This document shows positions 1 through 47,684 of a stretch of DNA of 64,000 bases, in pieces. The DNA is from Naegleria gruberi (taxonomy: Eukaryota): NCBI GenBank assembly GCA_000004985.1, contig GG738912.1. The stretch is one strand, 5' to 3'. A program made the translations under genes and the position numbers. Below the pieces are notes generated by a model. That model worked only from the letters and a program-made list of their open reading frames with translations, did not search any database and was not told where the DNA came from. Each line of letters opens with the position of its first letter. Within the stretch, counting starts at the first letter, position 1.

Positions 1-3000
1 ATGGCATCAAATAATTCAGGTGTTTGTAATGGAAGAGGTCATTGTATTGATTACAATCATTGTTCCTGCAATTATGGATACTCAGGAATTGGCTGTGAAC
101 TGTATTCTTGTTACGGAATTTCTGCAAATAGCTCACGAGTTTGTTCGGGAAGAGGAACTTGTAGTTTATCGGATAGTTGTATTTGTCAAAATCACTACAC
201 TTTCCAACAAGACTGTTCAGTTACAACTTGTAATGGAGAGTTCAGTAACTCTTCGAATGTTTGTAGCTCACATGGACAATGTATTTCTTACAATCATTGC
301 AATTGTTCTGAAAATTATTATGGAAATAATTGTGAAATGTTCAAATGCTTTAATATTCCAGCCAATGACTCATCAGTTTGTTTTGGAAAAGGAAATTGTT
401 CGGATTACAATACTTGTAATTGTGAATTGAATTATTATGGACTTGATTGTTCAGAAAAAATTTGTAATGGTACATTGAGTAGTAATTCATCTGTTTGTAG
501 TTCAAGAGGTTCCTGTGTTGCATTTGATTTGTGTAATTGCACTGAAAATTACTTTGGTGATTGGTGCGAATTGACTACCTGTTTTAATACATCATCTGAA
601 GATGCAAGTGTTTGTTCTGGTAAGGGAGTTTGTGTTAATTTTGATACATGTACATGTCAATCAGATGCTTATGGATCTAATTGTTCAGAATATGGTTGTT
701 TCGGAGTGATGAATTCAGAGCCAAATGTTTGTAGCTCAAGAGGAGCTTGTTTGAATACTGACAGATGTAATTGTTCAGATAATTACTTTGGAAATTACTG
801 TCAATTAACAACATGCTTTGGAATTACATCCAACGAAAGCATTGTGTGTAGTGGAATGGGAGATTGTATTGATTTTGATATGTGTCAATGCCAAACTGGT
901 TTTTATGGAGACGTATGTGAATCTCACTCTTGTTTTGGAATACTTTATAATAATGAAACAGTTTGCTCTAGTAACGGAAATTGTACTCAACTGAACCATT
1001 GTGAATGTAACTCTAATTTTACTGGAATTCAATGTGAAACTCTCATTGTAATTCCTGATCCTGTTGTAAACATTACAATGAATGAAACAATCGTAACAAA
1101 CACCATGAACGAAACTTCAACTTTAAACATCACCCTTCCATTGAATGAAACAATAGAAAGTAACGTGACCATTATCTTGAACGAAACCTTGAATGCAACC
1201 TTGAACGAAACTGTGGTTGATAATTCTACCTTTTTAAACGAAACCCTTGAATCAAACAATACCTCTTTGATTGAAAATACTACAAGATTGAACGAAACAG
1301 TGAATGCTACATTAACTACCAATGAAACAATTAATGCTAATGTGACTATTTCGAATCAAACATTGATTGCCAACGAAACAATTCTAGATAATGTGACTAT
1401 TACTAATAACATAACAACAGTGATTAGCGAGAACGTAACATTGATTGACAATACTACAGGATTGAACGAAACAGTGAATGCTACATTAACTACCAATGAA
1501 ACAATTATTGATAATGTGACTATTTCAAATGAAACATTGATTGTCAATAAGACAATTATAGATAATGTGACTATTACTGACAATATAACAATCATAACAA
1601 ATGAAACTAATATTGAAAATAGTCAAACAGTTGTAAACGAAACAAGTGTCAGCACTCCTAATATTACTCTGACTAATGATACAATAGTGAATAACGAAAC
1701 TACAATTGCAAACGAGACATATCTTAACGAAACTATGATTGATGTAATTCCAATAATTGAAAACGACACTATTCTTTGTGAAAAGAAGTTGAATTGTTCC
1801 AATCATGGTGATTGCCTTTATACTGGAAAATGTAGATGTTACACTGATGATTCGAATGGTTATTGGTCAGGAGAAAGTTGTGATACTTGCTTATTTGGAT
1901 TTTATGGAGATTCGTGTAGATTCAGACCTCCAGTTGCAATTATTGCGGCTACTGAAGAAGTTTATAGCTCTTGTGATGACATTTTGATTGATGGAAGGTC
2001 AAGTTATTCATTTGATGGAACTGATTTGAATTTCTATTGGAAATTGATTGATTCAGATACTTTACAAGAAGTTTCTTCAAATCATTCAAATGTTGCATTA
2101 TTAAGATTGAAAGGAAATATTCCACATGGTAATTATTTCATATCTCTCCAAGTAGAAAGTACCACTTTGAATCAAAATAGCTCCCTAGTTTATTCCAACA
2201 TCTTTAAAAAGTCAAAAGTTCCAATTCCTGTTGTAAATTTGATCGATAACACCATTGAAAAGTTTACAAATCAATTCCCTCTAACAGCCAAGAAGACACT
2301 TACAGAATCTGCATGTGCTTATGAAAAATCCATCATAGAATGGTCTCAAATAAGTGGCCCACCAATCAATTATCAAGTTGACCAATATTTCAATCTTTAC
2401 ATTCCATCTATGCTCAATTACGGCAAGAACTCATTCACATTCCAAGTAACTGCCTATTATCCATCTTCTCCTAAATTTAACGCTACTCAAACACTTATTA
2501 TCAAGACCAAATCCACAGATTTAAGTCTTGATCTTATACAAACCACAGCCACAGAAACATCTACAAATTTGGTTGTAAAATTTGTTGATCTAGAATTGAA
2601 TGGAGATGAGGAAACTTGGAAATGGAGTTGTTTGGATAATAACAATACGAAATTGATGCTTTTCCTTAGTGATATTTCTCAAAGAAAAGTTGATGATATA
2701 ACTTTTGATTCTTCTATTTTCGGAAGTGAAATACCAAACTCTATTGAATTAACTCTACAAGTCTCCAAATCCTATAACAGAAGTATTGAAAAATCAACAA
2801 TTATCTACTTTAATGCAATTCCTCCAATTGTCTCGATTGTTTATACTGAACCAAGTACAAGCTTTGTTCTTCCAGGTCAACAACTTTTCTTACAAACATT
2901 TATTGCCAACAATCAACAATCAAATTTGACAGTTTTCCTTAATGGACAAGTTATCGGTGTGTACGATAAGACAGGTCTGATAATAGACACTTCCAATTTG

Positions 3001-5253
3001 GAACAAGGTTCACAAAACACAATCACCATTCAATCATACGATCCTGCAACTGGAAAGATCTTTACTACCACCTATACCTTTAATGTAGCTTCAAATCCTA
3101 AACCTTGTAAATGTTCTATCACTCCATCTATTGGTACTGCTTTAGAAACAGACTTTGATTTTTACTGTGCTAATTGTAAAACAGATATTATTGATTATCA
3201 GTATGGATTTGTGGATGACAAGTCAGGTGTTAAGATTTCATTAAGAAAGGAAGAAGTATATTCATCCAAGTTACCTGCACCATATTATGGATCTACAGTC
3301 ACTTGTTATTTCGATATTATTGATACTTCAACCAATGCCTATTCGACAGTCTATGTAAATGTCACTGTGGAGGCTCCAACAGTTTCAACTATTGATCAAT
3401 TACAGAATTTGGTGGAAATTTGGGAATCTAGAAGTAATCAATATATTTTGGATGGCGAATTTAGTAAGGGAATTTATCAATCAGCAACAACTTCAAGAAC
3501 CGACTCGGTTTTAATGAGATCAGCTATTTCATCAGCAATTTCAACTCGTGCCTCTAATATTGTTTGTGGAAATGGTGTTGAAATTTCTGGTATTTGTAAA
3601 TGCTTTGATGGTTATGTTGGACAATACTGTGAAAGATCTATCAAATCCTTCTCAAATATTCAGTCAACCAAGATTCAAGTCTTGCGTCACCTTTCCTTAA
3701 TTGGAAACAACACTTATGAAGAAAGCATGAATAGCGATTATTTGTCATTGTTAACATTTGCAGTTGACTCTATTCTCATCAATTATCCATTCCTCAAATC
3801 TGAAACTATCCACGAATCTCTCACAACTTTCAACAATTTCCTGGTCAAAGGTTTAATTAATTCCAATCTCAGACTTTCCTCAGGTGCTGATCTTTTACTT
3901 TCTTCATGTCTTGATTCTGCTTACAAGTACATTATTGACAAACAATATCTCACTGACCAAACAACCAATTCTAATAAGTTACTCCGCTCTGTCAAACTTT
4001 CTTCCTATTTACAAGTAAGAAGTGTTCCAGCAGGAAGAGGAAGAAAAACAATGACTGGACCTTTCTTCTCAATTGTTTTAGGAAAGAGTTTCTTCCATGA
4101 TTATGAGACCAAAGTTCAAGATCCGCATTCTATGGTTTCTGTTGAAATGGAAAACGGATTCTTTGATAATTCTGCTAAATATTCGTTGAATATTTTATTG
4201 AAACAGTTCATGTATGTCTTAACAGTGACAGACGATATTTATTCATTGAATAAGAAATTGGTAGAAACTGAAACAGTTGATTCGAACACAAAAAAGAGAT
4301 CCAATTTAATATCAAAGATTGTTTCCATCGAATATTTGGATTCTCCATCTGCAATGAATGAAGAAAATTTAATTTATTCAATTCCTGTCGAATATGCAAC
4401 AAATAACGATAGTACACCTTTAGGATTTTTAGAAGAACGCACAATTTCATTCAGTTATTCATGTGGAGATTTTCTAGATGGAAATTCAAATATGCAATCA
4501 AATTGTGAAATCGTTTCAATTCAAGAAAAATCTATCAAATGCCGTTGCAAGAGATTTACTAATGTTTTTGTAATCCAAACAGCCACAATAACTACTCAAT
4601 CATATGGACAATATGTTGCTATTGGTGGTGCTACATTTGTCATTTTACTATTAATTTCCATCATTACCCTTATTACCCTTATTTGTGTAAGAAGAAGGAA
4701 ACGTAAACAACAAGCAAGAAGAATGGTCATGATGGAAGCTTCCAAAATCCAAGATATTATTCTTGAAAATCGTGAAGCATATTCTGGATTGGACAATTAC
4801 GATTATCCAGAAACACATTCATCAGGAAATCGTTCTGACGATGATCCATTCATGATTTACAAACCAATGATGAATGCAAATGGAAGAAATACACATTATG
4901 CACTTCGGACACACTCTTCTGATATCGATCTCTTACAAATTAATAAGATTAAGAGACATCAAGTAGCTCCAGAAGATTACTTCCAAGCAGCTCTGGATAA
5001 AGCACACGAAATGAACGAAACTTCATCAAGTAGAAGCGGATCCAATGATTCACCACGTAGATTATTAGGAGATTCAACATCAGATGTCTATGCTGGTAGA
5101 GTTAGATCTGGAAGTGCTATTAGTGTTGGAATTATTTGGGATTTGAAAGAACCAATTCTTCCAGAAGGTGGACATTCATCTGATAATGAAAGTTCCCAAG
5201 GATCTGCAGAACAATGCAACACACCAAAGAAATTTGATGATCACATGATTTAA
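1..5253 (+). CDS. Giant type-I receptor-like protein, paralog A (5' end cut by window edge): tenascin-type EGF repeats, N-glycan stalk, PKD/REJ-like module, GPS-like motif, single TM, cytoplasmic tail
   Basis: The 1750-aa ORF is open from position 1 with no signal peptide, so its 5' part lies upstream of the window. About 14 EGF-like units of 31-32 aa (C..G.G.C....C.C...Y.G..C) are followed by 240 aa of NxT/NxS sequons. Then comes 'PPVAIIAATEEVYSSCDDILIDGRSSYSFDGTDLNFYWKLI', which matches the PKD/REJ consensus. A further EGF 'GICKCFDGYVGQYCE' follows, then 'CEIVSIQEKSIKCRCKRFTNVFVIQ', the TM helix 'VAIGGATFVILLLISIITLITLICV' and an RRRKRK stop-transfer. The stop codon is at 5251-5253. Confidence 0.8.
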   Translation: MASNNSGVCNGRGHCIDYNHCSCNYGYSGIGCELYSCYGISANSSRVCSGRGTCSLSDSCICQNHYTFQQDCSVTTCNGEFSNSSNVCSSHGQCISYNHCNCSENYYGNNCEMFKCFNIPANDSSVCFGKGNCSDYNTCNCELNYYGLDCSEKICNGTLSSNSSVCSSRGSCVAFDLCNCTENYFGDWCELTTCFNTSSEDASVCSGKGVCVNFDTCTCQSDAYGSNCSEYGCFGVMNSEPNVCSSRGACLNTDRCNCSDNYFGNYCQLTTCFGITSNESIVCSGMGDCIDFDMCQCQTGFYGDVCESHSCFGILYNNETVCSSNGNCTQLNHCECNSNFTGIQCETLIVIPDPVVNITMNETIVTNTMNETSTLNITLPLNETIESNVTIILNETLNATLNETVVDNSTFLNETLESNNTSLIENTTRLNETVNATLTTNETINANVTISNQTLIANETILDNVTITNNITTVISENVTLIDNTTGLNETVNATLTTNETIIDNVTISNETLIVNKTIIDNVTITDNITIITNETNIENSQTVVNETSVSTPNITLTNDTIVNNETTIANETYLNETMIDVIPIIENDTILCEKKLNCSNHGDCLYTGKCRCYTDDSNGYWSGESCDTCLFGFYGDSCRFRPPVAIIAATEEVYSSCDDILIDGRSSYSFDGTDLNFYWKLIDSDTLQEVSSNHSNVALLRLKGNIPHGNYFISLQVESTTLNQNSSLVYSNIFKKSKVPIPVVNLIDNTIEKFTNQFPLTAKKTLTESACAYEKSIIEWSQISGPPINYQVDQYFNLYIPSMLNYGKNSFTFQVTAYYPSSPKFNATQTLIIKTKSTDLSLDLIQTTATETSTNLVVKFVDLELNGDEETWKWSCLDNNNTKLMLFLSDISQRKVDDITFDSSIFGSEIPNSIELTLQVSKSYNRSIEKSTIIYFNAIPPIVSIVYTEPSTSFVLPGQQLFLQTFIANNQQSNLTVFLNGQVIGVYDKTGLIIDTSNLEQGSQNTITIQSYDPATGKIFTTTYTFNVASNPKPCKCSITPSIGTALETDFDFYCANCKTDIIDYQYGFVDDKSGVKISLRKEEVYSSKLPAPYYGSTVTCYFDIIDTSTNAYSTVYVNVTVEAPTVSTIDQLQNLVEIWESRSNQYILDGEFSKGIYQSATTSRTDSVLMRSAISSAISTRASNIVCGNGVEISGICKCFDGYVGQYCERSIKSFSNIQSTKIQVLRHLSLIGNNTYEESMNSDYLSLLTFAVDSILINYPFLKSETIHESLTTFNNFLVKGLINSNLRLSSGADLLLSSCLDSAYKYIIDKQYLTDQTTNSNKLLRSVKLSSYLQVRSVPAGRGRKTMTGPFFSIVLGKSFFHDYETKVQDPHSMVSVEMENGFFDNSAKYSLNILLKQFMYVLTVTDDIYSLNKKLVETETVDSNTKKRSNLISKIVSIEYLDSPSAMNEENLIYSIPVEYATNNDSTPLGFLEERTISFSYSCGDFLDGNSNMQSNCEIVSIQEKSIKCRCKRFTNVFVIQTATITTQSYGQYVAIGGATFVILLLISIITLITLICVRRRKRKQQARRMVMMEASKIQDIILENREAYSGLDNYDYPETHSSGNRSDDDPFMIYKPMMNANGRNTHYALRTHSSDIDLLQINKIKRHQVAPEDYFQAALDKAHEMNETSSSRSGSNDSPRRLLGDSTSDVYAGRVRSGSAISVGIIWDLKEPILPEGGHSSDNESSQGSAEQCNTPKKFDDHMI
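1270..1620 (+). repeat. In-frame tandem duplication (2 x ~174 nt / 58 aa) inside the N-glycosylated stalk of paralog A
   Basis: The string 'gattgaacgaaacagtgaatgctacattaactaccaatgaaacaatta' occurs at ~1287 and again at ~1460. The two units encode 'LNETVNATLTTNETI..NVTISN.TLI.N.TI.DNVTIT.NIT'. The whole 1030-1750 stretch is NET/NVT low-complexity. Confidence 0.8.
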
Positions 5254-5362
5254 ATAAATGTCAACTATTTCCAATTTAGTATTTTTGGACAACCAAAATT
5301 GTTGTATTTTGCTTTTTCGAAACTTTGTCATCTTTCCAACATACACAAAAAAATGCAACAAG

Positions 5363-8612: not shown

Positions 8613-8693
8613 CTTGTGTTCAATGACGTCAATTAAGTTTAACAGATTAAACAATTTTATCAAATTCAATCACTTTGCAGCTTTTGTAGAGCA

Positions 8694-32527: not shown

Positions 32528-35500
32528 TTAAACAGTCGATTTCAATTCATAATTTTGCGGAGCAGCATGTTCTTTACCCTTCTTTCTTCTGAGGACACAG
32601 ACAATCAATCCAACAACAGCTACGATAATAAGAAGAACTGGAATAATTAACAAGATTAAGGCGATATAGTCCAAATTTGGAGTAGCTGGTGCAATTGGAG
32701 TTGGGTTTTGAGTAGTGGTACTTGTTTCTGGTTGAACATCAGGAGTAGTAGATGAAGATATTCCAATAACATAGGAACCAGTTGAGTTAATAGAAACTAC
32801 ATAAGAATCTGGGTTTGTACCAAGAATTGAGCAGGATGATGATTCGGTAATGGCTCCATTGACAACCATGTTACACTTTGGTTCTTGAAGAGCTCTGACA
32901 CTTGAATTTGACTTTTCAATGGTCAATTGAGCAATTGATTTGCTGTATTGAATCAAGACATTGCTGTTATCAGTACTTGAAACCACAAAGTCAAAGATCT
33001 TTGAAGTGGACTTGAATGTAGTATTGCTATTTTCATAAACCTTCATTGAGATTTTAACACTGTCCAAGGAAGAAACTTGTGGAATTTCACTAAAAACTGA
33101 TGAGAGATTGAATGAAGTGATACCATTTTCAGCAACGCTTTCGAATAAACCATTCAATGAAGCAATATTTACCAATCTTACATATGAAAGTGATTTAATA
33201 CCAGATCCTCTAACAGCAGGCATATCAGGAACAACATTCTTCAACTTGATATTCATCAAGTTATTCTTAACTTGGTCAATCTTGTTCAAATCTTCAATTG
33301 TAAAGCTAGAAGCCATTAAACTTCTCTTTCCTCCCAAGCTAGTACTGACATAGCTTTGAATGGTTGATGCAGAATCAGTGGATGATTTAATTTCTTCATC
33401 AGACAATGAAATTGAACTTGATGATGAAGCTCCATTTGTTGCAGATTGGAATTTTTCAATAATCATTCTAATAGTTTCATCTGGTAAGTTGTCAACACAG
33501 GAACTAATTGATGAAATGACTGACAAGGTTGAAGATGTTGAAGTAGAGGTTTGACTACTCAACTTTTCTTCAGTTGCCTTTTGTTCAAAGAATGAAAGAA
33601 CAATTTGCTTACCAACTTCAGCCAATAGTTTCTTTTGTTCTGGATCATCTGTTTTAACAGATTGAATAACACTCAAGGCAGAGGAAACTGAAGATGTTGT
33701 CATTGTTCCACTTGAAGAACTTGTTAAAGCTGTAATGGCAGTTGAGGCATCCTTTGGCATACTTACTGAAACAGTTGTGGTTGTTTCAGATGAAGCACCC
33801 TTAGAATCAAAGACAACAACCTTAATTTCCAACTCACCAGCAGGGAGTGAGGTACCAAATGATCTAGTTTCAGATTTTTCTTTCAATAGTCTCCAATTAG
33901 TGTCTGTACTTGTCTTGGAGTAGAATGCAAATGATAGTGGAAGTTGTGGATCAGACCAACCATTACCACATGAAATCTTAAATTCATCAGATAGGGCAAT
34001 ACCACTCTTTGGAGATACTTCAAGAGTACCCACAGTTGGAGGAGAGTTAACAGTGAATGACAATGAAGCTTCACCACTCTTTTGACCATCAACAACCTTA
34101 ATAGTTAGGGTATAGGAAGCACCTGGTGCCAATAATGATTTTGGAATGACAATGTATTGCTTTGAAATGTCAACTGAAGAATCAAAAGTAAAATCACTTG
34201 AAGACCAAGTAAATAATCTGGCACTCGTTAAAGTATCCAAAGAAGTTGTTTGTAAAATTAAATCACTTGATGGATCGACGGCAACAAGATCAGCATCTTT
34301 TGGAGCAGAAATTGAAACTCTCAAAACAGTTGACTTGGATTGATCAGAAACAGTTACCTTAACAGAAGCAGTTGATGTACGAGTTGACTTGGTATAAGTG
34401 GCAGTGAAAGAATAAACACCTGGGGTCATTGTCTTAACCAATTTGAGTGTTGATTGATCAATATTTTGTGCACCATCAACAAAACCTTCACAAGTTGAAG
34501 CAGTATCAATGTTTGAACATGAAATTGAGACTTCTCCACCAGCTTCAGTTGGATTACTTGGATCTTGTTTAGAAATTGTGAAACTAACTGGATCTTCAAA
34601 TGATTGAGTCATATCACGAATATTGAAAGCAACTTTCAATGGTAAAGCAGTTGCTGTAACCTTAAAAGTAACTGATGCTTCTGGTGAATTATCTTCCTTG
34701 GCAGTTAATTTAAAGACATATTCTCCTTCTTGAGTCAATTGAGTATATTCATTACTAAATACTAAAAGTTCATTCTTTTGTTTGAGAATTAAAGGACTTC
34801 CACTTTCCAATGAGTAGGTATAAACCAAGTTACCACTTCCCTTATAACATGATGGGAAAGTTACAATTGGTGAAATAATATATGGACTTCCAATAACCAT
34901 TGAACTTTCCAAACCATTCTTAATTGAAATAGTTGGAGGAGTAGCAGCAATAACACTAAATGTAACAGAGGCAACTGATTCCTTGAGAGAAAATGAACTC
35001 TTAACAGTCACTTGAACGACATAGGTTCCAACATCCAAATCAGATGCTGAAAATTTAACACCAGGAGTTGACAGTTTTGAAATGATTGAATCTAAAACTT
35101 CAGTACTTGAAGGAGCCAAAGTTGTTGTCCATGAATAAATCAAAGATCTACGATCCAAACTTGAAGAACCAGATGCATCCAAATAAATAGAACCACATGC
35201 CTTTGAAATAGTGGACTTGTCAGCAATCAAAACAGCAACTGGATCAACAGCCTTATAGCTCATTTGTGCTACAGTAACATAGGTGGTCAATTCACTATCA
35301 AAATATTTCTTGACATTCAAAGTTCCACCAATGGTAATTGATGAAGAGATACCCAAGGTAATAGTCAATAAACTCTTTTCACCATTCAATGAGCAAACAG
35401 GATTAGTTCCCAAAACTTGTGAATTTGTAATCAATGAAGAACAGTCAATTCTCTTTCTCAAACTACTCATAACAGTAGCAGTGATGGAATCACCATTTTC

Positions 35501-38500
35501 AGAGAAACCAAATGAACTAGTATCAATACTAAAATCACACTTTTCACCAAACCAACCAGATTTACAAGTTTGACAATTGGCACCTTCTGCATTACCTGAA
35601 CATATGCATGATCCATCATTTGAACAAGTTCCCTTTCTATTACAAGTAGTTTCGGCAGAACATTGATATTGACATTGATCACCAACATAGCCATCAATAC
35701 AACGTTCACAGAATGGACCAGTAAACTTATCAGAANNNNNNNNNNNNNNNNNNNNNNNNNNNNNNNNNNNNNNNNNNNNNNNNNNTCTAATATCCTTATC
35801 AATGTAATTTCAAACACTCTTACACAATCTAGTTTCAGGAGTTGATGGAGAGTTACAAGATTGAATGACAGAATAGCAAGCAAGTCTTGCATTTGACTCT
35901 TCACATGTAGAATTACAAACTGTACCTTGTCCTTGAATCTTTACAATATTTGAATCATAGAGAGATTTAGCAGACTTGTCAAGTTGACTCATGGCATTAG
36001 TAATCAATTGTCTAGCATCAGTTGCATTGGCAGCTCCAGATGAGTAATGAGTATTCAATACCTTAAAGTTTTGAAGATGTGTTTTACAGAATGAAAGTCC
36101 AGAAGGTGGAATAGGAACACATGAGGCAGCTGGTGTATAAATAGTACAATCATCTCCAGTAAATTCAGGTGGACATACTTTAACACAGTTTCCTTGAGCA
36201 TTCTTTACATATCCGGAAATACATGAACCACATGGATTTGTAGCGAGTTCAGTAACATACTTTTCTTGACATTTACAATAACCTTGATAACCAGTGGTGT
36301 CCTTGTAGACACATTGTCCATATTGACCACATCCATCAGCACAATCAGCTGGTAAACGAATACAATTACCATTTTCATTATTGAAACCAAATGGACATAC
36401 ACAAACACCTTTTTGTAAAATAAATCCAGTCTTACACGAGCTACACAAGTCTCCAACAAATAAATCGCTTGTACATTGACACTTGGCAATACCAGTTGAG
36501 TTGAGACAAACACCTCCATTCAAACAAGTAAGTTTACAAGCAACTTCTGGTTGACCAGGAGCAGTTTCACACAATGAACCAGAATAACCATTAATGCATG
36601 AACAAAATTCCTTATTGGAAGCATCAAATTTACACAATCCTCCATTCAAACATTGCTTTGAACAAATTTTCTTTTCACACAAATCACCTTCATAACCAGA
36701 ATTACAATTACATTTAGCAATACCAGTAGAGTTGGCACATTGACCACTGACACATTTCAAGGTGCAAGGATTTGGAATCTTCTTTTCACACAAATCACCT
36801 TCAAATCCTGAATTACAAGTACATTTAGATACACCATTGACATTGTCACATCGTCCGTAAACACATAGTAAATTACATGATTGTTTTTCACACAAATCGC
36901 CTTCAAAACCATTGTTACACATACATCTGGCTGTTCCTGTTGTGTTTGAACAAAGACCATTGACACATTTCAAGGTACATGGATTTGGAATCTTCTTTTC
37001 ACATAAATCACCTTCAAATCCTGTATTACAATTACATTTGGCAATACCAGTTGTATTTGAACATTGTCCACTTACACATTTCAATGTACATGGATTGGCT
37101 GATAGTTTTTCACACAAATCACCTTCGAATCCATAATTACAAACACACTTCATCACACCATTGACATTGGTGCATTGACCATTGACACACCTCAAAGTAC
37201 ATGGTGCAGTTGTTTGTTTTTCACATAGATCACCTTCATAACCAGTGTTACAAACACATTTAGCAATTCCAGTTGTGTTAGCACATTGACCATTGACACA
37301 TTTCAGTGTGCAAGGATTGGCTGATTGTTTTTCACATAAATCGCCTTCAAACCCTGGACTACAAATACACTTCATCACACCATTAACATTTGAACATTGT
37401 CCATTGACGCATTGTAAAACACATGGTGTGGTGGATTGTTTTTCACACAAATCACCTTCATAACCAGTATTACAATTACATTTGGCAATTCCAGTTGTGT
37501 TAGTACATTGGCCATTGACACATTTCAAGGTACAAGGATTTGGAATCTTCTTTTCACATAAATCACCTTCAAATCCTGAATTACAATTACATTTCTGAAC
37601 TCCATTAACATTTGAACATTGACCATTAACACATTGTAAAGAACAAGGGGCATTGGATTGCTTTTCACACAAATCACCCTCATAACCAGCATTACAAATA
37701 CACTTTGGTGTTGCACCAGAACCAACACATTGACCATAAACACATGCCTTGCCACATGGTGATCTTTCTGGTACAGAACAAGTCTTTCCAGAATAACCAG
37801 TATTACAATTACAATAAGCTGGATTTTGATAAGAATCAGCAGTTCTCATCATGACAGCTTCATCTCCAATTAAGACACTAGTGCCAGAGGTACAAGTACT
37901 GTTAGTTTGAATTTGACAGAATTGACCTGTTTTACCAGAAGTACAAACACAACTACTTGTTCCATAGCTGCATTAAAGTAACTGAAACCAACATTGGTAC
38001 AATAATTATCATAATTGACGCAAGTTTTAGCATTGTAACGAGCAGTAACAGCAATACAGACTGGATTAGATGCTGGACAATCAAGACTAGTGGAACATTG
38101 TTCTTGGCATAATCCACTTCTACATTCAGAGTTATAATAACCCATTCCCAAACAATCAGCTTTAGTTTCACATAATCTGGCAACACATTTCTTTTGGTTA
38201 TTACAATATGGGGTCTTTGTGGAAGCTATTCCTTGACAATCAGCATCAGTTGCACATTGTTCAACACATTTAGTGTTTGAGCATTTTGGTTTGTTTGGAT
38301 CTTTACAATCATTATTACTTGAGCATTCAGAATGACAAATCATTTGACTTGAATTTGTGGAAATTAAAGAAACAGAAAAACTTCTAGAGGATGCAACAAT
38401 ACAAGATGGATAATTTGGATTTGTACAATCAGAGTTTGAGGAACACTTTTGATATGAACATCCCTTATATCCAAGAAGTAAATCTTGGCAAACTTCATAT

Positions 38501-41500
38501 GCATTTCCACATTGAGAATTGTCAGTACATCCAGCTGAACACTTATTATTGATACAAATCTTTCCTGAAGAACAATGGGCTGAGGTGGTACATTCTGGTG
38601 CACACTTTTTAGCGACAACATCACATCTTGAATTCACTGGATCGTTACAAGTAATGGTTGGGGATACAAGATTGCATTCATAGAAACAAACAGTTTGATC
38701 TGAAGAATAAAAAGTTGAAGCACTCGAGCTCACTTTGCTATAAGGAATACAAGCACTATATGTTCCAAGATTTGCACATTCTGAGCTTGAAGAACACTTC
38801 TTATAGGCACAATCATATTGGTTAGAAGAGTCCTTATAACAAACTTTGTTAGTAGAGGCACACACATCCCTATCAGTAATTTGATCACAACTTGAGCAAG
38901 TTCCTGCATTACAGAACTTCTTATTACCATAACTAAAACAATCTGTATCACTTGCACATTGAGATGCGCAAGTTCCATATTTAGTATTACATACTGGATA
39001 TTTTGGATCTTTACAATTTGTATTGGATGTACATTCTGGAGAACAAACAGTTGCTGAAGTATTCAATGTCAATCCATTAATAATATATCCAAAAGTTGAT
39101 GCTGGTTTACAATATTTGAAGAGTAAACCCTTACAATCAGTATCAGCATTACAAAGTTTGTAATTACAAGATTTGCTTCCATCCAAATGAAGTGCACAAC
39201 CCTTAGTACCATCACAAAAACCATCACTTGTACATGGGGCACACTTGGTATTCACACAAAAGTTCTTTCCACATTGACTATTGGATGTACATTCTGGAGC
39301 ACAAACGTTTTTGGTACATTTGGATTTGAATGGATCTTTACATTGACTGTCAGATGTACATTCAATATCACATGTTCCCTTATTACAAATTGGATAGGAA
39401 GCTCCACAATCAGAGTTAGAGAAACAAGGTTTCAATTCACAATCACCAGTTGCATTACAATATGGTCTAAAAGCATCAGTACAAGAACTATTAGAGGTAC
39501 AGAATGGAACACATTCTTTCCAAGAAGTACATTTGTGTTTGTTATAGGTTGAACTACAATCAGCACTTGTTGAACATTCATTCAATTTGACACGACACTT
39601 GTTAGTGGAAGTATCACAAGCACTTGTACTATTACAATGACTATCAAGTGTACATTCTGGTGAACAAACACCTGATCTACATCTTGGTTTGGCAGCAGTT
39701 GAACAATCGCTATCGATATCACATTCAGGTTTACAATAGCCAGATCTACAATATGAGTTAGGACTAGTAGATCCACAATCCATTGCAGAGGTACATGCCT
39801 TATATGAACAATCACCAGTGGTGGTATTACAAGTTGGGAAAGCATAATTCGTGTTGCAGTCAAAATTGGTAGCACAATTGGCAACACACTTATTTCCTGA
39901 ACATTTGTGTCTATTCGCAGTACCACTAAAAACTCCAAGTTAAAAATGAAATATTTCACAAACTTACCTGCAATCAGAATTTTCATTACATTCAAAGGTA
40001 CAAATCTTTTCACTTTGAGAGAGTATACTTTCATCATAAATATTGAATTTGCTTGCTGGGAAACATCCTCTACCTGAAGGACATTCACTAGTGGATGAAC
40101 ATTTCTGATATGTACACAACGTATATCCAGATGGAGTAATACCACAATAGTCCTTATTTGGTAATCCACCTGTACAGTCTGCTGTTGTTTTACAGTTGGC
40201 ACATGTTCCTCCAATGCATTTAGAATAACGGAAATTAATATTAGTTATGCAATCAGAATCTTGTGAACATGGACTAGATGCAACACATTTAGCTCCAAGA
40301 TTGGTATTATTCTTTACACATAATTGCTTTTCAACTGATTTACAGTCATCACCCATGCATTCCTGTTACAATTTTGTTACAATCAAAAATGTTGAAAAGA
40401 TTCTTAAAACTTACACCATAGCAATGAGTTCCAATGCATGAACTGAACCAAGGATTAGTACAAGTAACATTGGCATCACAATAATTGGTACATCTTCCAT
40501 CAACACAAGCTGTTTTATCGTCATCTCTTCCAGAACATTGACTGTGTGTTTCACATTCTTTTTACAAATTTAGAATAAAAAATCAAAAAGAAAACATACC
40601 TGATTTACACAAACCATCCGAACAACGTGTAAAAGCTCCCCAAGTACAATCAGCTGCAGAAGAACATGTTTTAAGTGCACAATCATTAGAGGTGGCGTTA
40701 CAAATTGGATGACTTCCAATAGGACAATCAGAATCTGATTGACAATTTTGAACACATTTTCTACCTGCACATTTGTGCTTGTTTAAAGTTCCACTATATA
40801 TATGATTTTCAGGAAAATATTCCTATAACACTGAACTTACCTGCAATCAGCATCAGTTTCACAATTATAATCCAAGCAAACTCTTGTTTCTGGATCTTCA
40901 AAATCATTAATACTAAAGTCTGTTGCCTTCCAACATTTCTTCTCTCCTGGACAATCACTAGATGATGAGCATCTTTGATAGGTACAAGCAGTGATACCAT
41001 CATCAGTCAATCCACAATAATACTTGTCATTATTTGGACAATCTGAATTTTGTAAACAGTAAGCACATGTACTATTCATACACTTTGAATAAATCCAGTG
41101 ATAATCATTTGATGAACCGCATTGGGAATCTGATGAACATGCAGAACCTAAAAAAGTAATAAATTATTAGTATTTTAATATAAAAAAACATACCTGGAAC
41201 ACATAAATTACCACCATTAGTACTATTATGATAACATTTTGGCTTTTGAAGTGATTTACAATCATTTCCAGTTGAGCAAGACTATTTTCAGTAATTAATA
41301 TAAATGTAATAGTTATTCAAAACTTACAGGGAAACAATAATTACTCAAACATTTACCGAACCAAGGATCAGTACATGGTTGATCATCACTACAATAGTTA
41401 GTACACTTGTTATCCATACAGACATGTTTACCATCTGTCTTATCTTTACAATCAGCATTGGATGTACATTCTATTACAATGATTAAGTATTACTGAAAAT

Positions 41501-44500
41501 TACAAAATGTTAAACTTACCATAAGAACAAACTGAATTAACACACAATGAATTTCTATTTCCAAGAGGTGAACATTCATCATTGGATGTACATGATTGAG
41601 CAACACAAATACCACCATCAGTTGTCTTTGCATTTGCTGGTCTTTGACATTTACCTTTTCCTGGCATGGAACATTCCAAATCCTTGGTACATTCTAAAAA
41701 GGCATTAAATTATAAACATTCTACAAGTTAAAACTTACCATGACGACACATTCCATTCACACAATGAGGGAAATAACCTTCTCCATAAGATTTACAACTC
41801 TCATCACTTGTACATGTTTGTGTAATACATTTAAATTTAGAAGCATCACACCTTTGAGTACCTGGTCTTCCACTACAATGAAAATCAGTAGAACATTCTC
41901 CATTACATCTATTATTATCACACATTGGACTCCAATTGAATCCCAAACAACCATAATCACCAAGACATACTTTTTCTTTACAAGAATAATTTGATAAATC
42001 ACAAGATGGTCTAGTTGGGGAGGTACAATTGGTGTCAGCAATACATTCCTTACCACAATTCATCAGGCCAGTTAGAGGACTTGTCATACATGCACCGAAT
42101 TTTGAAGGACAATCATCATTGGATTCACAAATATCATTCAAGTTATAAGTTGCACATTCATATCCATTCTTGGCCATGCAAACATTAAATGTTCCATAAC
42201 AATCATTATCAACAAGACAAGCTGTTGCACATTTTCCAGATTTACAATACTTATTGGCTCCATCTTGAGGACAATCACTATCTTGACTACATGTTCTTTC
42301 AACACAGACATTATTTTCACAAATTGGTTTGCCAGGAGTATTAGAACAATGAGAATCAGTTTCACATTCAATGGCACAAACTTTAGAATTTCCATACATG
42401 GTAGAATAGGGAGTTACTCTACAGCCCTTTGTGGAAGCAGGACAATCTTTACCATATTTACACATAGTAGGAACACACATATTCAATGTAGTATTACAAG
42501 TTGGGGTATCCAAATATGAACTACAATCAGATGAGGAAGCACAAGGTGGATACATGGCCTTACATTGAGAATTAATACAATACTTATTGACACCATTTTG
42601 TGGACAATCCTTATCAGCTGAGCATGATTTAGCAACACAAGTATTTGAAGAACAAGTTGGTTTTCCATTAACATTCTTACAATTGGCATCTTCTGTACAT
42701 TCCACCTTTGAACAATAACTTGTTCCATTCAATGGCAAGAATGAACAATATTTGTAAGAAGTAGAGCTGCATTCAGATGAAACGATGCATGGCTTTGGTA
42801 CACATGCTCCATTTTTGTTACAATATGGTTTACCAGGTACTGATTCACATTCAGAATCAACACTACATTCAACATTATCACAAGTTGATCTAACACAATA
42901 TGGATAAACAGGATTTGTACAGTTAGAAGAGGTAGTACATGGTGTCTTTTCACATCTACTTCCCTTAGCTCCGTAATCAACACAAATTGGGAATCTAGCA
43001 GAAGTACAATCAGCATTTGAAGAACATGTCTTTTTACAAGTTCTATAACTTGTTGAGGAACTATCAGTGTCACATTTTCCAAATCTATATTCATTAGTAC
43101 AATCACTATCTGAAGCACATTCAAAGGCACAAACACCACTAGATCCACAGAAATACATACCATTGGTAGTACAAGTAGATACTGCATATGTATTGGCAGT
43201 AGAACAAGATACTGGTGAACAATAAGAAACTCCAGAAACTGATTGACAAAGCTTGTTGGCAGAGAAACCAGAACATGAACCACAAGGTCTCTTACAAGTT
43301 AATGAATTGGTACGAACCATTCCAGGTTTACAGGCACAATTATCTTTAGATTCACACCAACCAGCATCAACAGATCCACAAACTTCAGGATTATCTGATT
43401 TCATTGATCCACAAGTGGTAATATTACAACTGGATCCAGTGAAAGAGTTTGTACATGTACAAGTATCAGGTTTAGAACAAGTACCATGGCCACTACAAAC
43501 AAGTGAATTTGAAGCAGGGATACCAAAACAAGAAATTGCTTGACATTGACTTCCAGAATAACCACTTTGACATTTGCATGTATCCTTAGCGATACATTTA
43601 CCATGTCCACCACAAACAGATGTATCTAAATTGGAAGATCCAAAACAAGTTGTTTGTTCACAATTACTTCCATTGAAACCAGAATTACAGGTACAGTTAT
43701 CAAAACCAGAACAAACACCATTTCCACTACAAACTGTAGAATTGGTATTTGGAATTCCATTACAAGTTGTAAATTGACATTGATTTCCATTATGATTAGG
43801 AGTACATGAACATTTATCTAATGAATCACATGTACCATGTCCACTACAAACACTTGAATCATTTGCTACCTTATCAAAACACTTGAGTTGACAATCAGGA
43901 CAAATAACACCCTCACAATCAGCACCATTCAAACCAGTTCTACATTTACAAATACCACTTCCGACTTTTTTGGACTTGTCATAAATGAATGTACATTGAC
44001 CTCTTCCATTACAAACATCCAAAGCAGAAGAATACTTTCCATTACATTGAATTTCACATTTGTGATCAAAATCAATTCCAGGAATAGTACTAATGCAACT
44101 CTTTGGAGTGAGAATTTTGATCGAATTTGAGGATGAATGGACATACATGATAGATCCATCATCTAACAATACCATATCAGAGGCACCAGCCATCAAAGAT
44201 TTAACAGAACTATCAGTACTAAGATAACCCGTATCTTTAACAATTGTATAGAATGTAGTGAATGTCGGATCTGTAACAAATACTTGTTCTCTATCAGAAA
44301 CATAAACGATTGAACCTGCTGAAGCAAAAGTGAATGCTGGATAAATTTCACCAGCCCAAACGAGATCCAAAGTGTAAATTGAAATAACATTCTTCTTGAA
44401 AACATAGACATAGTCACCAGCAACAGCCACATTCAAAACAAACCTTGCACCAACATTACTCAAATCTCCAAGATAGTTACAACTTTTACCTTGATTGACA

Positions 44501-46053
44501 GCACTATGTTTACAAAGATATTCCTTATAGGAAGCAACTTGTATAGCATACATACTTTGTGTTTTTGAGCTGAAACCACCAAATGTCAATTCTCCCCAAA
44601 AACATGAAGAACCACAAGAGCTAGCGCTAGAACCATCTGAGCCAGCAGAAGAGGCACCACCAAATGAAATGACAACATTACCATTCTGAGCAATTTTCAA
44701 AAGGAAAGTTCTACCACCATCAGTTGCCATACAAAAGATTACATCATTATCATCAATAGAAAGTGTTCTTGGATAATATGGAGCAATATTTGCTACTGTT
44801 GTAATTATATTAGTCAACAAGTCAATCTTTCTAATTCTTTTACCATTTCCTTCAGCAATATACAAGTAATTACCCTTTTTGGCAATCTTTTTAATATTGT
44901 TAAAATAAGCAAATTTGTAAGAATCATAATCTCCAATATTTTCAACATCTCCACCAGCAATTTTAGTGAATGAAAGTAAATCAAGATCAACTAAATAAAC
45001 AGAAGAAGATTCAGCAACAATAAGAGTCTTGGAATTGAGTTGAGTTGCAGAGACAAGCTTTTTTTCAAAACTGAGCCATGTTGAAATAGTTCCACTATTT
45101 GCATCACCACTGAAAAGCTTAATATTGTTATTGGAAAGGAAATACTTTTTAGAGTTTACAGTGAAATAATTACTTAATGGACCACATTTAGAATTTGTAG
45201 CATCACCATCAACATCGTACACCTCACCATATGAACACCAAGCAATTAATTCAGCATCACTTGGGGAAGGTTGAGCAATCTTGTAAACACGTTTTTGTTT
45301 TGTCATACTATAATCACCATCTATCATAAAGTACATGGTCTCATCAGCATCAACAAAGAGTGAAATACCAATATAGTCCAAGCCATAAATCACATCTCCA
45401 GCAGTAGTCTTGATCAAGAGTGATTTCAATCCTTTATAAAGAATACCTCCAGATCCAGAATCCATGTTACTAGTGTCAGCTGTGTATAACTTTATCATTG
45501 AACTACCATCGATAGTAATCTTTTCAAACCAAAGTTGATAAGCAATAGAGTTTGTACCACTGACACGATTAACCATATCCCAGTGAGTAAAATAAATGTA
45601 GCCATTTCTGTAACTAATAGCCCTAATATTCGCATAAGTTCTAGAAATGTAGGTTGGTGTAAAGGAAAAAGTTGCACCAGTGGTCAAATCAATTCTTCCG
45701 ATAGAAGCTTTATCTGATTTAACATAGAAGAGGTACTTTTCACCACATGTCATATCTTTGGTAATTCCAGAAACATCAATAATCTTAACAAACTTGGATG
45801 GATTTACCATTTTATAAACAGAAGAATCAGTGACAACATAAATGGTCTCATTAATGTTACATGTTCCAATAATATTCTTGATAGGAACATCAAGACCATA
45901 TCCATCAGGGAATTTAACAGGACGAGAGTGTGAGCTCAAAAAATCCTTACTCTCAAACTCATAGAACGAGTAAGGTGTTGTTGCATGGACAAGGGCACAT
46001 GCCAGGAGTACTGTTAGAACAAGTACCCATAAAGAGTTTCGTTGTAGCTCCAT
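32528..46053 (-). CDS. Giant type-I receptor-like protein, paralog C (~13.5 kb, >=11 exons, >4000 aa): signal peptide, beta-propeller-like region, tenascin-type EGF repeats, CxxDxDC Cys-rich repeats, EGF array, PKD/REJ-like module, TM. Interrupted by the assembly gap, plus one unresolved frame break
   Basis: The start ATG at 46053 precedes the signal 'MELQRNSLWVLVLTVLLACALVHA'. Exon 1 ends at 41739 (...GMCRHG|). Introns read from sequence are 41694-41738, 41471-41519, 41282-41327, 41148-41193, 40794-40840, 40558-40599, 40363-40414 and 39926-39967 (42-52 nt, GTAAGT/GTATGT..AG). Each joins Cys-rich modules, e.g. '...CETDADCR|SGT..NKHKC'. The 37870-39783 and 35810-37852 blocks are in different frames with no valid splice between them (~37973-37998). 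A GTAAGA donor at ~35819 runs into the N gap. The last exon, 32528 to at least 35735, encodes 'CERCIDGYVGDQC...CSNDGSCICS...' then 'ISKACGSIYLDASGSSSLDRRSLIYSWTT' (PKD/REJ-like). It ends with the TM 'YIALILLIIPVLLIIVAVVGLIVCV' and 'LRRKKGK'. Confidence 0.7.
35736..35785. other. Assembly gap (50 N) inside paralog C
   Basis: A run of 50 'n' characters; coding sequence continues on both sides. Confidence 0.99.
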
Positions 46054-47684
46054 TTTTTTGTTCAAACTTGTTTTTGCTGGGTAGCTTAGCCAACCGCAAC
46101 ATGTGTTGTTGTTAAACATGTCTATTTTAATGCTTAGATTCAAGAGATCGTCTTCATTGCCATATTGTATCACTACAAACATAGTATTTATTGTAAATGC
46201 ATGCCTTTATTTAAAGAGTACTAATAAAGACATGAAGATGGGGCTCCAAACTTGTGTTTAATCTCCTAATTGTAAACATGCACTTTTGGGAGATTCTGGC
46301 TTTTAAGGCGCAAGTGTATTTGAGACATTCACCGACTATTAAGAGGCCTCTGTTGTTTCACATAGGACGATAATTGGTTCTGTGTGTATTACCACAGCGA
46401 GGAAAACCACAAGAAATACAAGACTTCCTTAGTTTTCCTCAAGTTAAAACTTGGCGGAAACACATGCTGTGATATATTAATAAACCTTAATGATTCACCT
46501 TAATTAGGGTGGAAACACAACAAATTAATAGTATGCAGTTCACCCGTTTTACGTTGCCAGCTGAATCATTGGCTTGCAAGAAAAATGAAAGCGATACAAA
46601 GTCTACCCAAGTATGCGATACCAAATCATACCGCTAATTTGCTGTAGTTCCAAAAAAAGTCCATTCTGGGAATCAAAACAAAATTTTCCTACACTATTTG
46701 AGTTTAGCTCCTCAAATCAAACCAAAAGCTAATAAGGAACTGAAGGATGAATAAGGAAGAAAAAATCGACAGCGCTAAATCAAACTTTTAAAGCACGAAT
46801 TAGGTTGGACCAAGGCAGACCCACTCTTAAAATATATTCCCTTCACTCTGATATTCGAGTGCCAAGCAAGCAAATGCTCTTGAGCATTTCCGGCTCCAGA
46901 ATTTTGGTGTGAATGCTCGTGTGCAAGCTCCTCTATTTCCATTTATAACCTTCAGTTCCATTCCTGACCTTCAGTTCCATATTAAAATATCAACAAAATG
47001 TATTTTAAAATGTATTATTAATAATATAATAAGGCTGGCAATTATTTGTTGTTGAATCAGTCCTGTTGGTTGAATTGGCACATTGTGTTTCTTTGATTTT
47101 GTGTTTACCTTAATTAAAATAGTAGCGAGAAATAACGTTGCTTACTACATGTATGTATTCTACCTTATTCCAGATCCATTTCCAAGTGGAAAAAGCAAGG
47201 GTTGTGAAGGATTTATTTATTTTGGAAGCTCTGTTATTAGTTGTAAGGATTTATGGATTAATAGTCAACAGGTGAAATTACCTCTAATGTTTGATATAAA
47301 GCTAGTGAATGTGCAATTAAAGTCAGTGTTCAAATCGTAAAACCCATTAATGATGGGCCAAACAAATTTGGATACTAAGAATTTGCCGCCTGTCAAAATG
47401 AAAACCGTTACGATTATTAAATAATAAATATTCACCATCAGAAAAAAACTTACCAACAAGAAATCACACCAACAACAATCAATAATTTATTTACCATGGG
47501 TGTGATTTCTTGTTGGTAAGTAGTTAGTTCAAAAAAATTGATGTGATAGAGCTGTAACATATTTCCACGTATCAACCAATTTCACACTTATCTCATCAAC
47601 ATTAGGTATCAAGCAAAGATGATCTTGCCATTACAATATCCGTCGAGGCTTTAAACCCCAGATAGTACGCACTCGCAGATGCTC

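What the first reader, a model, noticed from the sequence alone, without database searches (positions are those of the whole stretch)
1..46182. Cluster of three paralogous giant receptor-like genes (NHL propeller + EGF arrays + glyco-stalk + PKD/REJ-like + GPS-like + TM)
Paralog A (1-5253, +, partial), B (16082-25675, -) and C (32528-46053, -) share the same C-terminal module. That module is a Cys-containing PKD/REJ-like segment (C..I.LDGS.S.D.DG..L.Y.W), then ~600 aa, then a GPS-like pre-TM motif, then one TM helix with a basic stop-transfer. Their N-terminal repeat content differs: A and B have 32-aa tenascin-type EGF repeats, B adds NHL repeats, and C has several hundred residues of CxxDxDC repeats. 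Together they occupy ~30 kb of the 64 kb window. The domain combination NHL + EGF + REJ + GPS is otherwise characteristic of metazoan teneurins, polycystin-1 and suREJ. Finding it as a multi-copy type-I family in a protist genome is unusual and not obviously described.
Basis: partly seen in the sequence, partly recalled or inferred. Interest (0 to 1): 0.8.

Follow-up and report, generated by a model that had tools for sequence, protein, structure and literature searches.

The report
Naegleria giant REJ–GAIN surface receptors
Three giant single-pass surface glycoprotein genes of the amoeba Naegleria gruberi carry the membrane-proximal module (PKD-like, REJ, GAIN/GPS) of animal polycystin-1 and sea-urchin egg-jelly receptors, and they belong to a large, undescribed family spread across heterolobosean protists.

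Summary
The window is Naegleria gruberi NEG-M. It contains three very large type-I membrane-protein genes:
- A: 1-5253 (+), 1750 aa, the N-terminus may be cut by the window or scaffold edge.
- B: 25654-16082 (-), about 3155 aa.
- C: 46053-32528 (-), about 4400 aa.

All three end in the same collinear module: PKD-like Ig domain, REJ domain, GAIN domain, one TM helix, short tail.
- REJ (PF02010) passes Pfam's threshold in all three.
- Pfam's GPS model does not pass in any of them.
- A family profile aligns its C-x-C-x-R-F-T-N-V-F motif in register with latrophilin's C-S-C-N-H-L|T-N-F.

A and B are close paralogs (38% identity). C belongs to a distant subfamily (hhalign 98.7%, E 3e-16) with a degenerate GPS. 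The N-terminal parts differ: NHL propellers, EGF arrays, an N-glycan stalk, or Cys-rich repeats.

The family has at least 25 sequence clusters. Twenty were looked up: 15 are N. gruberi, and the others are N. lovaniensis, Willaertia, Percolomonas and unnamed metagenome proteins. The closest known relatives are the single-TM sea-urchin SpREJ1/8/9 and the polycystin-1 ectodomain. These are not teneurins.

The catalytic His-Leu is missing, so autoproteolysis is doubtful. B and C each carry an apparent 1-nt frameshift. I rate this a new variant of a known kind, of moderate interest.

The parts
1..5253 (+). Gene A: 1750-aa ORF. The N-terminus may be cut by the window or scaffold edge.
   Evidence: P0011 (1750 aa) matches the profile at 641-1570.
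1..1047 (+). A: array of about 11 teneurin/tenascin-type EGF repeats
   Evidence: PF25024, PF07974 and PF23106 hits
1048..1776 (+). A: N-x-S/T sequon-rich stalk (about 44 sequons)
1921..3462 (+). A: PKD-like Ig domain followed by the REJ domain
   Evidence: REJ 52 bits at aa 801-1154. KIAA0319L PKD E 0.006 on the first 90 aa.
3565..3630 (+). A: single EGF between REJ and GAIN
   Evidence: The same order is seen in P0045.
3640..4602 (+). A: GAIN domain (helical subdomain plus beta-sandwich)
4459..4578 (+). A: GPS motif with C1488, C1502, C1514 and C1516. The site equivalent to HL|T is R1518-F1519|T1520.
   Evidence: Sequence. In register with the ADGRL3 GPS.
4612..4689 (+). A: transmembrane helix with RRRKRK stop-transfer
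4690..5250 (+). A: 187-aa cytoplasmic tail with no recognised domain
16082..25654 (-). Gene B: about 3155 aa. Introns at 24340-24398 and 22414-22457. Apparent 1-nt frameshift at about 16589-16602.
22024..25480 (-). B: NHL beta-propeller repeat region (about 1100 aa)
   Evidence: TEN_NHL 80 and 113 bits; NHL 50 and 53 bits
20608..22023 (-). B: EGF array
   Evidence: EGF_TEN 147 bits
19552..20607 (-). B: N-glycan sequon-rich stalk (about 64 sequons)
17494..19077 (-). B: PKD-like plus REJ domain
   Evidence: REJ 49.5 bits, E 3.2e-13, when the module is scanned alone
16412..17337 (-). B: GAIN region ending in the GPS motif (16412-16531, C-K-C-S-R-F|T-N-V-F)
   Evidence: 35-44% identical to A's modelled GAIN. 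Motif coordinates.
16292..16378 (-). B: transmembrane helix, followed by a 69-aa tail (16085-16291)
32528..46053 (-). Gene C: about 4400 aa. It has 8 short introns (41738-39926), a frame break near 37950, and an internal N gap at 35736-35785.
44059..45981 (-). C: N-terminal region after the signal peptide. Weakly NHL/propeller-like.
   Evidence: NHLRC2 E 5.5e-4. DUF6923 23 bits, below cut-off.
37873..43284 (-). C: Cys-rich CxxDxDC-type repeats (14% Cys, about 43 units)
   Evidence: Weak Dumpy DPY hit.
35813..37972 (-). C: second EGF array
   Evidence: EGF_TEN 138 bits, EGF_3 68 bits
33680..35194 (-). C: K319L-type PKD domain (34991-35194) and REJ domain (33680-34456)
   Evidence: PKD 38.5 bits, REJ 132.5 bits
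32762..33739 (-). C: GAIN domain with a degenerate GPS (32759-32878; 2 Cys; N-S|T-G-S-Y)
   Evidence: AF2 pLDDT 84, pTM 0.80. Foldseek BAI3/CELSR1/BAI2/CL1/ADGRL3 E 8.5e-10 to 5e-6.
32591..32668 (-). C: transmembrane helix, then a 20-aa tail ending in ...ELKSTV

Best explanation
**Shown.** A, B and C are members of a heterolobosean-expanded family of giant, heavily glycosylated, single-pass (type I) cell-surface proteins.
- Their membrane-proximal 900 residues are homologous to the ectodomain core of the PKD1/REJ family. The order is PKD-like Ig domain, REJ domain, a single EGF (in A/B), a complete GAIN domain whose last strands form a GPS motif, one TM helix, and a short domain-less tail.
- Variable distal modules sit on this constant stalk: NHL beta-propellers, long EGF arrays, an N-glycan mucin-like spacer, or Cys-rich repeats.

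**Inferred.** They act as adhesion or ligand-sensing receptors of the amoeba surface, for substrate, prey or cell-cell contact.
- The distal propeller and EGF modules would bind ligand.
- The REJ-GAIN unit would be the rigid, possibly force-sensitive coupling to the membrane.
- The tails carry no catalytic domain, so signalling would need a partner. SpREJ1, the single-TM sea-urchin receptor that triggers Ca2+ entry, is the precedent.

**Autoproteolysis.**
- In A and B it is uncertain. The Thr nucleophile and all four cysteines are kept. The general-base His is Arg, as in BAI3, and the Leu is Phe.
- In C it is unlikely. The motif is N-S|T and two cysteines are lost.
For: - REJ is above the Pfam cut-off in all three.
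- The family profile hits ADGRL3 GAIN at E 3.3e-5, ADGRD1 at 2.8e-4 and ADGRF1 at 2.2e-3, with the C-x-C-x-x-L-T-N motif aligned.
- Pfam GPS matches 5 of 16 family members at sub-threshold level.
- The family GAIN HMM hits a multi-TM protein with canonical GPS (P0045: CSCNHLTSF; Pfam GPS 40 bits) at E 3e-16 in a local search.
- The A/B and C-type modules are collinear (hhalign 98.7%).
- Signal peptides and a single TM helix are predicted. Sequon-rich stalks are present.
- The same NHL+EGF+PKD+REJ+TM architecture recurs in D2VYF1.
- The family has 21 clusters with E<1e-30. The looked-up members come from N. gruberi, N. lovaniensis, Willaertia and Percolomonas.
- SpREJ1, 8 and 9 have one TM helix, and SpREJ1 binds egg-jelly fucose sulfate polymer and raises Ca2+ (PMC1934368).
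- BAI3 has Arg at position -2 and is uncleaved in HEK cells. H836S, L837A and T838G block CL1 cleavage (PMC3321182).
Against: - There is no expression, localisation or ligand data, so the functional part is inference from architecture.
- Pfam GPS is below threshold in A, B and C themselves.
- No PLAT domain, no channel-like TM bundle and no recognisable signalling domain is present in the tails.
- B and C each contain an apparent 1-nt frameshift, and C contains an assembly gap, so one or both could be pseudogenes.
- The AF2 models rest on shallow alignments of 16 and 6 sequences.
Confidence: 0.72

Rival explanations
1. They are passive surface-coat or adhesin glycoproteins (glycocalyx or matrix anchors). 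The REJ-GAIN unit serves only as a rigid stalk, with no cleavage and no signalling.
For: - The tails are short, variable and domain-less.
- The catalytic His-Leu is not conserved across paralogs: RF, KF, QL, RL, KL, SF.
- The C-type GPS is degenerate.
- Huge repetitive EGF, Cys-rich and mucin-like ectodomains are typical of structural adhesins.
Against: - The beta-13 strand T-N-V-F-[IV]-x-E-T and the four cysteines are strongly conserved in the A/B clade. That is more conservation than a mere spacer needs.
- Relatives with canonical HL|T and multi-TM bundles exist.
- The single-TM protein SpREJ1 does signal (PMC1934368).
Confidence: 0.3
2. They are gamete or mating-type recognition receptors, analogous to sea-urchin REJ proteins. 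On this view they would be rapidly diversifying because of sexual selection.
For: - SpREJ1 is a sperm receptor with the same REJ-GPS-1TM core (PMC1934368).
- A search listed a paper on Ectocarpus candidate male reproductive genes that uses the term 'REJ domain' (PMC4700764; not read).
- The family is large and its distal modules diverge strongly.
Against: - Nothing in this work links these genes to mating.
- The family is much larger than expected for a mating system.
- No expression data are available.
Confidence: 0.08
3. B and/or C are pseudogenes or mis-assembled loci, so the 'cluster' overstates the number of functional genes.
For: - B has a frame break at about 16589-16602 and C has one near 37950. 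Each needs one extra base, and neither has a canonical intron.
- A 50-N gap lies inside C.
Against: - Downstream of each break the frame stays open for 171 aa in B, and for 720 and 1093 aa in C.
- The conserved cysteines, GPS, TM helix and tail remain intact.
- This pattern fits a consensus error or a very recent lesion. The A/B divergence of 38% excludes duplication artefacts.
Confidence: 0.15
4. They are protist teneurins, as the best-scoring Pfam models (Teneurin EGF, Teneurin NHL) might suggest.
For: PF25024, PF23106 and PF25021 are the top EGF and NHL models.
Against: - The topology is type I, whereas teneurins are type II (PMC3278476 abstract).
- No Pfam model other than the NHL and EGF ones matched the teneurin-like part.
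- A REJ-GAIN module is present, and teneurins are not described with one (my own knowledge).
Confidence: 0.02

Closest known systems
Sea-urchin receptor for egg jelly SpREJ1 (also SpREJ8 and SpREJ9), the single-TM members of the PKD1 family
   Same: - Large, heavily glycosylated type-I proteins with EGF, a REJ domain, GPS, one TM helix and a short tail (PMC1934368).
- No 11-TM channel-like region.
   Different: - SpREJ1 has C-type lectin CRDs and only one EGF. The Naegleria proteins instead have NHL propellers, tens of EGFs, N-glycan stalks or Cys-rich repeats.
- The cleavage triad is not HL|T here.
- The organism is a discoban protist, and the family is far larger.
Polycystin-1 (PKD1) and PKD1-like proteins
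   Same: - The order is PKD Ig domain, REJ, then GAIN/GPS immediately before the first TM helix.
- Homology is supported by Pfam REJ and by family-profile links to canonical GPS proteins with multiple TM helices.
   Different: There is no PLAT/LH2 domain, no 11-TM or channel-like bundle and no coiled-coil tail. The His-Leu of the GPS is replaced.
GAIN domains of adhesion GPCRs (BAI3/ADGRB3, BAI2, latrophilins, CELSR1, GPR110)
   Same: - The two-disulfide GPS cysteine pattern is kept in A/B.
- Arg at position -2, as in BAI3 (PMC3321182).
   Different: - GAIN is followed by a single TM helix, not a 7TM bundle.
- Sequence identity is only 9-12%.
- The C-type GPS has lost one disulfide pair.
Teneurins
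   Same: Teneurin-type EGF repeats and an NHL beta-propeller (best Pfam models).
   Different: - The membrane topology is opposite.
- No other teneurin-specific Pfam model matched.
- Teneurins are not described with REJ or GAIN (my own knowledge).

Membership tests
PKD1/REJ family | REJ domain (PF02010) | tested here: met
   A 52 bits, B 49.5 bits, C 132 bits, against a cut-off of 25
PKD1/REJ family | GAIN domain fold immediately before the first TM helix | tested here: met
   AF2 models of A and C match GAIN structures only. B is inferred from 35-44% identity to A.
PKD1/REJ family | GPS motif recognised by Pfam PF01825 above threshold | tested here: not met
   No hit in A, B or C at E<=10. 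It matches 5 of 16 family members only at sub-threshold level, best E 0.0029.
PKD1/REJ family | Four-cysteine GPS pattern and the H-L|T/S cleavage triad | tested here: inconclusive
   A/B keep 4 Cys in the C-x13-C-x11-C-x-C arrangement and the Thr nucleophile, but read R-F|T. C has 2 Cys and N-S|T. Cleavage itself cannot be tested here.
PKD1/REJ family | PLAT/LH2 domain after TM1 | tested here: not met
   No PLAT hit. The tails are 20-187 aa.
PKD1/REJ family | 11 TM helices with a channel-like C-terminal half. This is absent in SpREJ1, 8 and 9. | tested here: not met
   A single hydrophobic helix is found. Multi-TM relatives exist among the fetched proteins (P0045, P0047, P0125).
Adhesion GPCRs | GAIN domain directly followed by a family-B2 7TM bundle | tested here: not met
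   GAIN is present, but only one TM helix follows.
Teneurins | Type II topology with an N-terminal cytoplasmic domain | tested here: not met
   B and C have an N-terminal signal peptide, and all three have a C-terminal TM helix.
Teneurins | YD/RHS shell and C-terminal toxin-like domain | tested here: not met
   No such Pfam hits in any piece.
Teneurins | EGF repeats plus NHL propeller | tested here: met
   PF25024, PF23106 and PF25021 hits in B.

The most novel reading that the evidence does not exclude
The REJ-GAIN unit predates the split between Discoba and the animal lineage, and it originally worked on single-pass receptors. On this reading the Naegleria proteins still self-cleave at the GPS, using a non-canonical triad ([RKQS]-[FL]|T). 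They would shed or expose a conserved T-N-V-F-[IV]-x-E-T strand as a mechanosensory switch that acts on a separate partner. One possible partner is a multi-pass protein such as the orphan 7-segment membrane protein encoded directly downstream of A.
Probability: 0.15. Interest if true: 0.7.

Novelty: new variant of a known kind. Interest (0 to 1): 0.45.

Why it matters
GAIN/GPS and REJ domains are central to adhesion-GPCR biology and to polycystic kidney disease, yet their origin and ancestral context are unclear.

This family is large and diverged, and it lies in Heterolobosea, far from animals. It pairs a well-folded REJ-GAIN core with a single TM helix and interchangeable ligand-binding heads. 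Three consequences follow.
- The module is old and portable.
- The family offers natural variants of the cleavage triad for testing what GAIN autoproteolysis really requires.
- It gives candidate surface adhesion or sensing receptors for Naegleria-group amoebae, whose receptors are poorly known.

All named members carry only generic names: 'predicted protein', 'hypothetical protein' or 'EGF-like domain-containing protein'. No paper in the searchable library describes them.

Tried and rejected
- **Word-indexed protein search.** The search with A's module and with the 16-sequence GAIN alignment returned nothing. The exhaustive HMMER search and exact look-ups show the family is in the same collection. 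I treat the two empty results as a tool limitation, not as absence.
- **Genomic context.** The look-up of encoding contigs found no record for two window proteins, so the context of paralogs could not be examined.
- **Pfam GPS.** Short GPS peptides and whole modules gave no hit.
- **PDB by sequence.** C's module gave only spurious or EGF hits.
- **AFDB.** The AFDB Foldseek library was unavailable.
- **Teneurin membership.** Rejected on topology and domain content.
- **Assembly duplication.** Rejected, because A and B are 38% identical. tblastn finds no fourth copy of the A/B-type module in the window.
- **Non-canonical introns.** I looked for introns that would bridge the frame breaks in B and C. 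The only in-frame candidates (GTCTTC...ACAG of 77 nt in B; GTTACT...ACAG of 56 nt in C) would delete conserved Cys-containing sequence.
- **The ORF downstream of A.** It has no Pfam or PDB relatives.
Full report
**Source and layout**

The window has 33% G+C and long ORFs interrupted by very short introns. Five of its ORFs are exact matches to Naegleria gruberi proteins on one 238,573-bp scaffold: EFC37954, EFC37956, EFC37960, EFC37997 and EFC38005, with locus tags between NAEGRDRAFT_74206 and 74221.

**Gene models**

- A (1-5253, +) is a single 1750-aa ORF. The exhaustive search returned a 1750-aa protein, P0011, that matches the profile at residues 641-1570, exactly where the module lies in A. 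The ORF opens inside an EGF array at window base 1, so the gene may be cut by the window or scaffold edge.
- B has two canonical introns: 24398-24340 (GTATGT...TAG) and 22457-22414 (GTAAGT...TAG).
  - It also has a frame break at about 16589-16602 that no canonical intron explains. One added base restores a sequence that aligns with A (…FPIN·QDQSSYAGTFLDLEIVTSNNSYSCVDF…). The corrected protein is about 3155 aa.
- C starts at the Met of a good signal peptide (46053).
  - It has eight 42-52-nt GTAAGT/GTATGT introns between 41738 and 39926.
  - It has a second single-base frame break near 37950, inside an EGF repeat.
  - It has a 50-N assembly gap at 35736-35785.
  - It ends at 32528, giving about 4400 aa.
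- B and C have N-terminal signal sequences. All three have exactly one strongly hydrophobic helix near the C-terminus, followed by a basic cluster. The topology is therefore type I.

**Domain content**

- REJ (PF02010) is above the curated cut-off in all three: A 52 bits, C 132 bits, and B 49.5 bits when its module is scanned alone.
- A K319L-type PKD Ig domain precedes REJ. It is significant in C (38.5 bits). In A/B it is weak but consistent (18 bits; PDB KIAA0319L PKD E 0.006).
- B has about 1100 aa of NHL repeats (TEN_NHL 80 and 113 bits). C's N-terminal 650 aa give only weak NHL-like signals.
- All three have teneurin/tenascin-type EGF arrays.
- A and B have a spacer packed with N-x-S/T sequons, about 44 and about 64 respectively. 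C instead has about 1600 aa of Cys-rich CxxDxDC-type repeats (14% Cys) and a second EGF array.

**Are the three related?**

- A and B are 38% identical over 855 aa of the module and 39% over the EGF and stalk part. They are real paralogs, not duplicated assembly.
- C is remote by BLASTP (24%, E 2e-10 against B).
- I compared a profile of the A/B module with a profile of C plus its four homologs. They align collinearly over 793 columns, from the PKD-like domain to the TM helix (hhalign 98.7%, E 3e-16). The main difference is the single EGF, which only A/B carry between REJ and the pre-TM domain.

**The 'GPS-like' element**

Pfam's GPS model does not hit A, B or C. Four further lines of evidence bear on the question.

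1. *Motif.* In A/B the motif is C-x13-C-x11-C-x-C-[KS]-R-F-T-N-V-F. It reproduces the C2→C3, C3→C4 and C4→Thr spacings of latrophilin-1 (C820..C832-x-C834-x-H836-L837|T838; PMC3321182); the C1→C2 gap is shorter (14 vs 19 residues). The Thr sits at the +1 position.
2. *Family profile.*
   - A 16-sequence profile of the 420 residues before the TM helix hits GAIN-containing PDB sequences: ADGRL3 E 3.3e-5 over about 208 residues, ADGRD1 2.8e-4 and ADGRF1 2.2e-3. 'CkCskLTNVF' aligns to 'CSCNHLTNFAV'.
   - Five of the 16 members give sub-threshold Pfam GPS hits.
3. *Structure.*
   - An AF2 model of A aa 1125-1545 has pLDDT 84.6 and pTM 0.82. It shows a helical subdomain followed by a beta-sandwich.
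   - The equivalent region of C, modelled with 5 homologs, has pLDDT 84.0 and pTM 0.80. It again matches only GAIN domains (E 8.5e-10 to 5e-6).
4. *Link to canonical proteins.* The family's GAIN HMM hits, in a local search, a metagenomic PKD-REJ-EGF-GPS protein with about 9 TM helices and a canonical CSCNHLTSF. Pfam GPS scores 40 bits on that protein.

I conclude that all three genes encode REJ-GAIN-TM proteins.

The catalytic triad is not canonical.
- A/B have R-F|T.
- Paralogs have KF, QL, RL, KL or SF before the Thr.
- The C-type has N-S|T-G-S-Y and only two cysteines.
- BAI3 also has Arg at position -2 and is uncleaved in HEK cells. H836S, L837A and T838G abolish CL1 cleavage (PMC3321182).

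Cleavage here is therefore an open question.

**Family and distribution**

- The exhaustive HMMER search with the A/B module gives 191 proteins at E<1e-3 and 21 at E<1e-30.
- Thirty of the fetched proteins contain at least 150 positions of the GAIN module.
- Of 20 clusters looked up, 15 are N. gruberi 'predicted proteins' spread over many scaffolds.
  - Three lie on one 348-kb scaffold.
  - D2VYF1 and D2VYF3 lie on one 244-kb scaffold with consecutive accessions. D2VQ48 and D2VQ49 do the same on a 352-kb scaffold.
- The other five clusters are N. lovaniensis, Willaertia magna, a cluster with a Percolomonas cosmopolitus member (a multi-TM form with an RCC1 propeller head), and unnamed metagenome or read-archive proteins.
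- C has three N. gruberi paralogs at 47-49% identity and one N. lovaniensis homolog.
- D2VYF1 (4502 aa) repeats B's NHL+EGF+PKD+REJ+TM plan.
- Cytoplasmic tails are 7-187 aa, unrelated between clades, and carry no domain.

**Interpretation**

What is shown is the architecture and the homology. The proposed function is inference: adhesion or ligand-sensing surface receptors whose REJ-GAIN unit couples variable heads to the membrane, signalling if at all through a partner.

The closest precedents are the single-TM sea-urchin SpREJ1, 8 and 9. SpREJ1 has EGF, REJ, GPS and one TM helix, binds a sulfated fucan and triggers Ca2+ entry (PMC1934368).

They are not teneurins. The topology is wrong, and no other teneurin-specific Pfam model matched. 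They are not adhesion GPCRs or full polycystin-1 homologs either, because there is no 7TM or 11TM bundle and no PLAT domain.

**Novelty**

GAIN domains in Dictyostelium and Tetrahymena were reported in 2012 (PMC3321182). REJ/GPS proteins are also known outside vertebrates. The presence of these domains in a protist is therefore not categorically new.

I found no paper that describes this Naegleria or heterolobosean family or its NHL-EGF-REJ-GAIN single-pass architecture. I rate it a new variant of a known kind, of moderate interest.

**Limits**

- There are no expression or biochemical data.
- The AF2 models rest on shallow alignments.
- B and C each have an unresolved frame break, and C has a gap.
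- A's 5' end lies at the window edge.
- The word-indexed homolog search failed for the A/B clade, although the clade is present in the collection.

Noticed in passing
window 5258-7348 (+): An ORF of 696 aa starts 5 nt after A's stop codon; a more likely start is the Met at 5363. It has a signal-like helix, a sequon-rich N-terminal region of about 240 aa, seven hydrophobic segments (aa 301-572) and a tail of about 120 aa. It has no Pfam or PDB relative and no paralog elsewhere in the window. A 7-segment membrane protein right next to a GAIN-containing single-pass protein is suggestive, but nothing links them.
   Followed up: partly
window 16589-16602 (-) and about 37950-37972 (-): B and C each need one extra base to keep a conserved reading frame (…FPIN·QDQSS… in B; …GFSYF·CSYGTSSCVC… in C). 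No canonical intron is present, and the frames stay open and conserved downstream. These are either consensus errors or very recent frameshifts.
   Followed up: partly
window 35736-35785: A run of 50 N (an assembly gap) lies inside gene C. It sits between the second EGF array and the laminin-type EGF/PKD/REJ part, so the junction, probably an intron, is unresolved.
   Followed up: no
window 39926-41738 (-): Eight introns of 42-52 nt are packed into 1.8 kb of C's Cys-rich repeats. They fall at recurring positions of the repeat unit (…C-x-x | E-C-T…, …D-C | S-G-T…). This suggests the repeats were amplified together with their introns.
   Followed up: no
window 32531-32554 (-); paralogs P0019, P0021, P0023, P0028, P0031, P0034: C and many distant paralogs end in a similar C-terminal motif: …ELKSTV, …IELITV, …VELMTV, …FSTV, …QWSV. 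It looks like a [ST]-x-V PDZ-ligand or C-terminal-valine export signal. A and B lack it.
   Followed up: no
window 26897-31597 (+): A 1566-aa protein with TmcB-type TPR repeats and a C-terminal PAS domain (EFC37956) lies between B and C. It is unrelated to the family.
   Followed up: no
window 52899-54560 (+), 59146-60219 (-), 60277-62463 (+): Three housekeeping-type neighbours: cryptochrome DASH (D2VYR8), an actin-family protein, and an Hsp70 whose ORF has about 124 residues ahead of the Hsp70 domain.
   Followed up: no
N. gruberi scaffolds of 348,446, 243,952 and 351,708 bp (proteins P0013, P0016, P0017; P0025, P0023; P0162, P0163): Paralogs of the family lie together on other scaffolds too. 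Some pairs have consecutive accession numbers, so local tandem expansion seems to be a general feature.
   Followed up: no
tool behaviour: The word-indexed homolog search returned no hit for the A/B clade. Exact look-ups show those proteins are in the same collection. Empty results from that tool should not be read as absence.
   Followed up: yes
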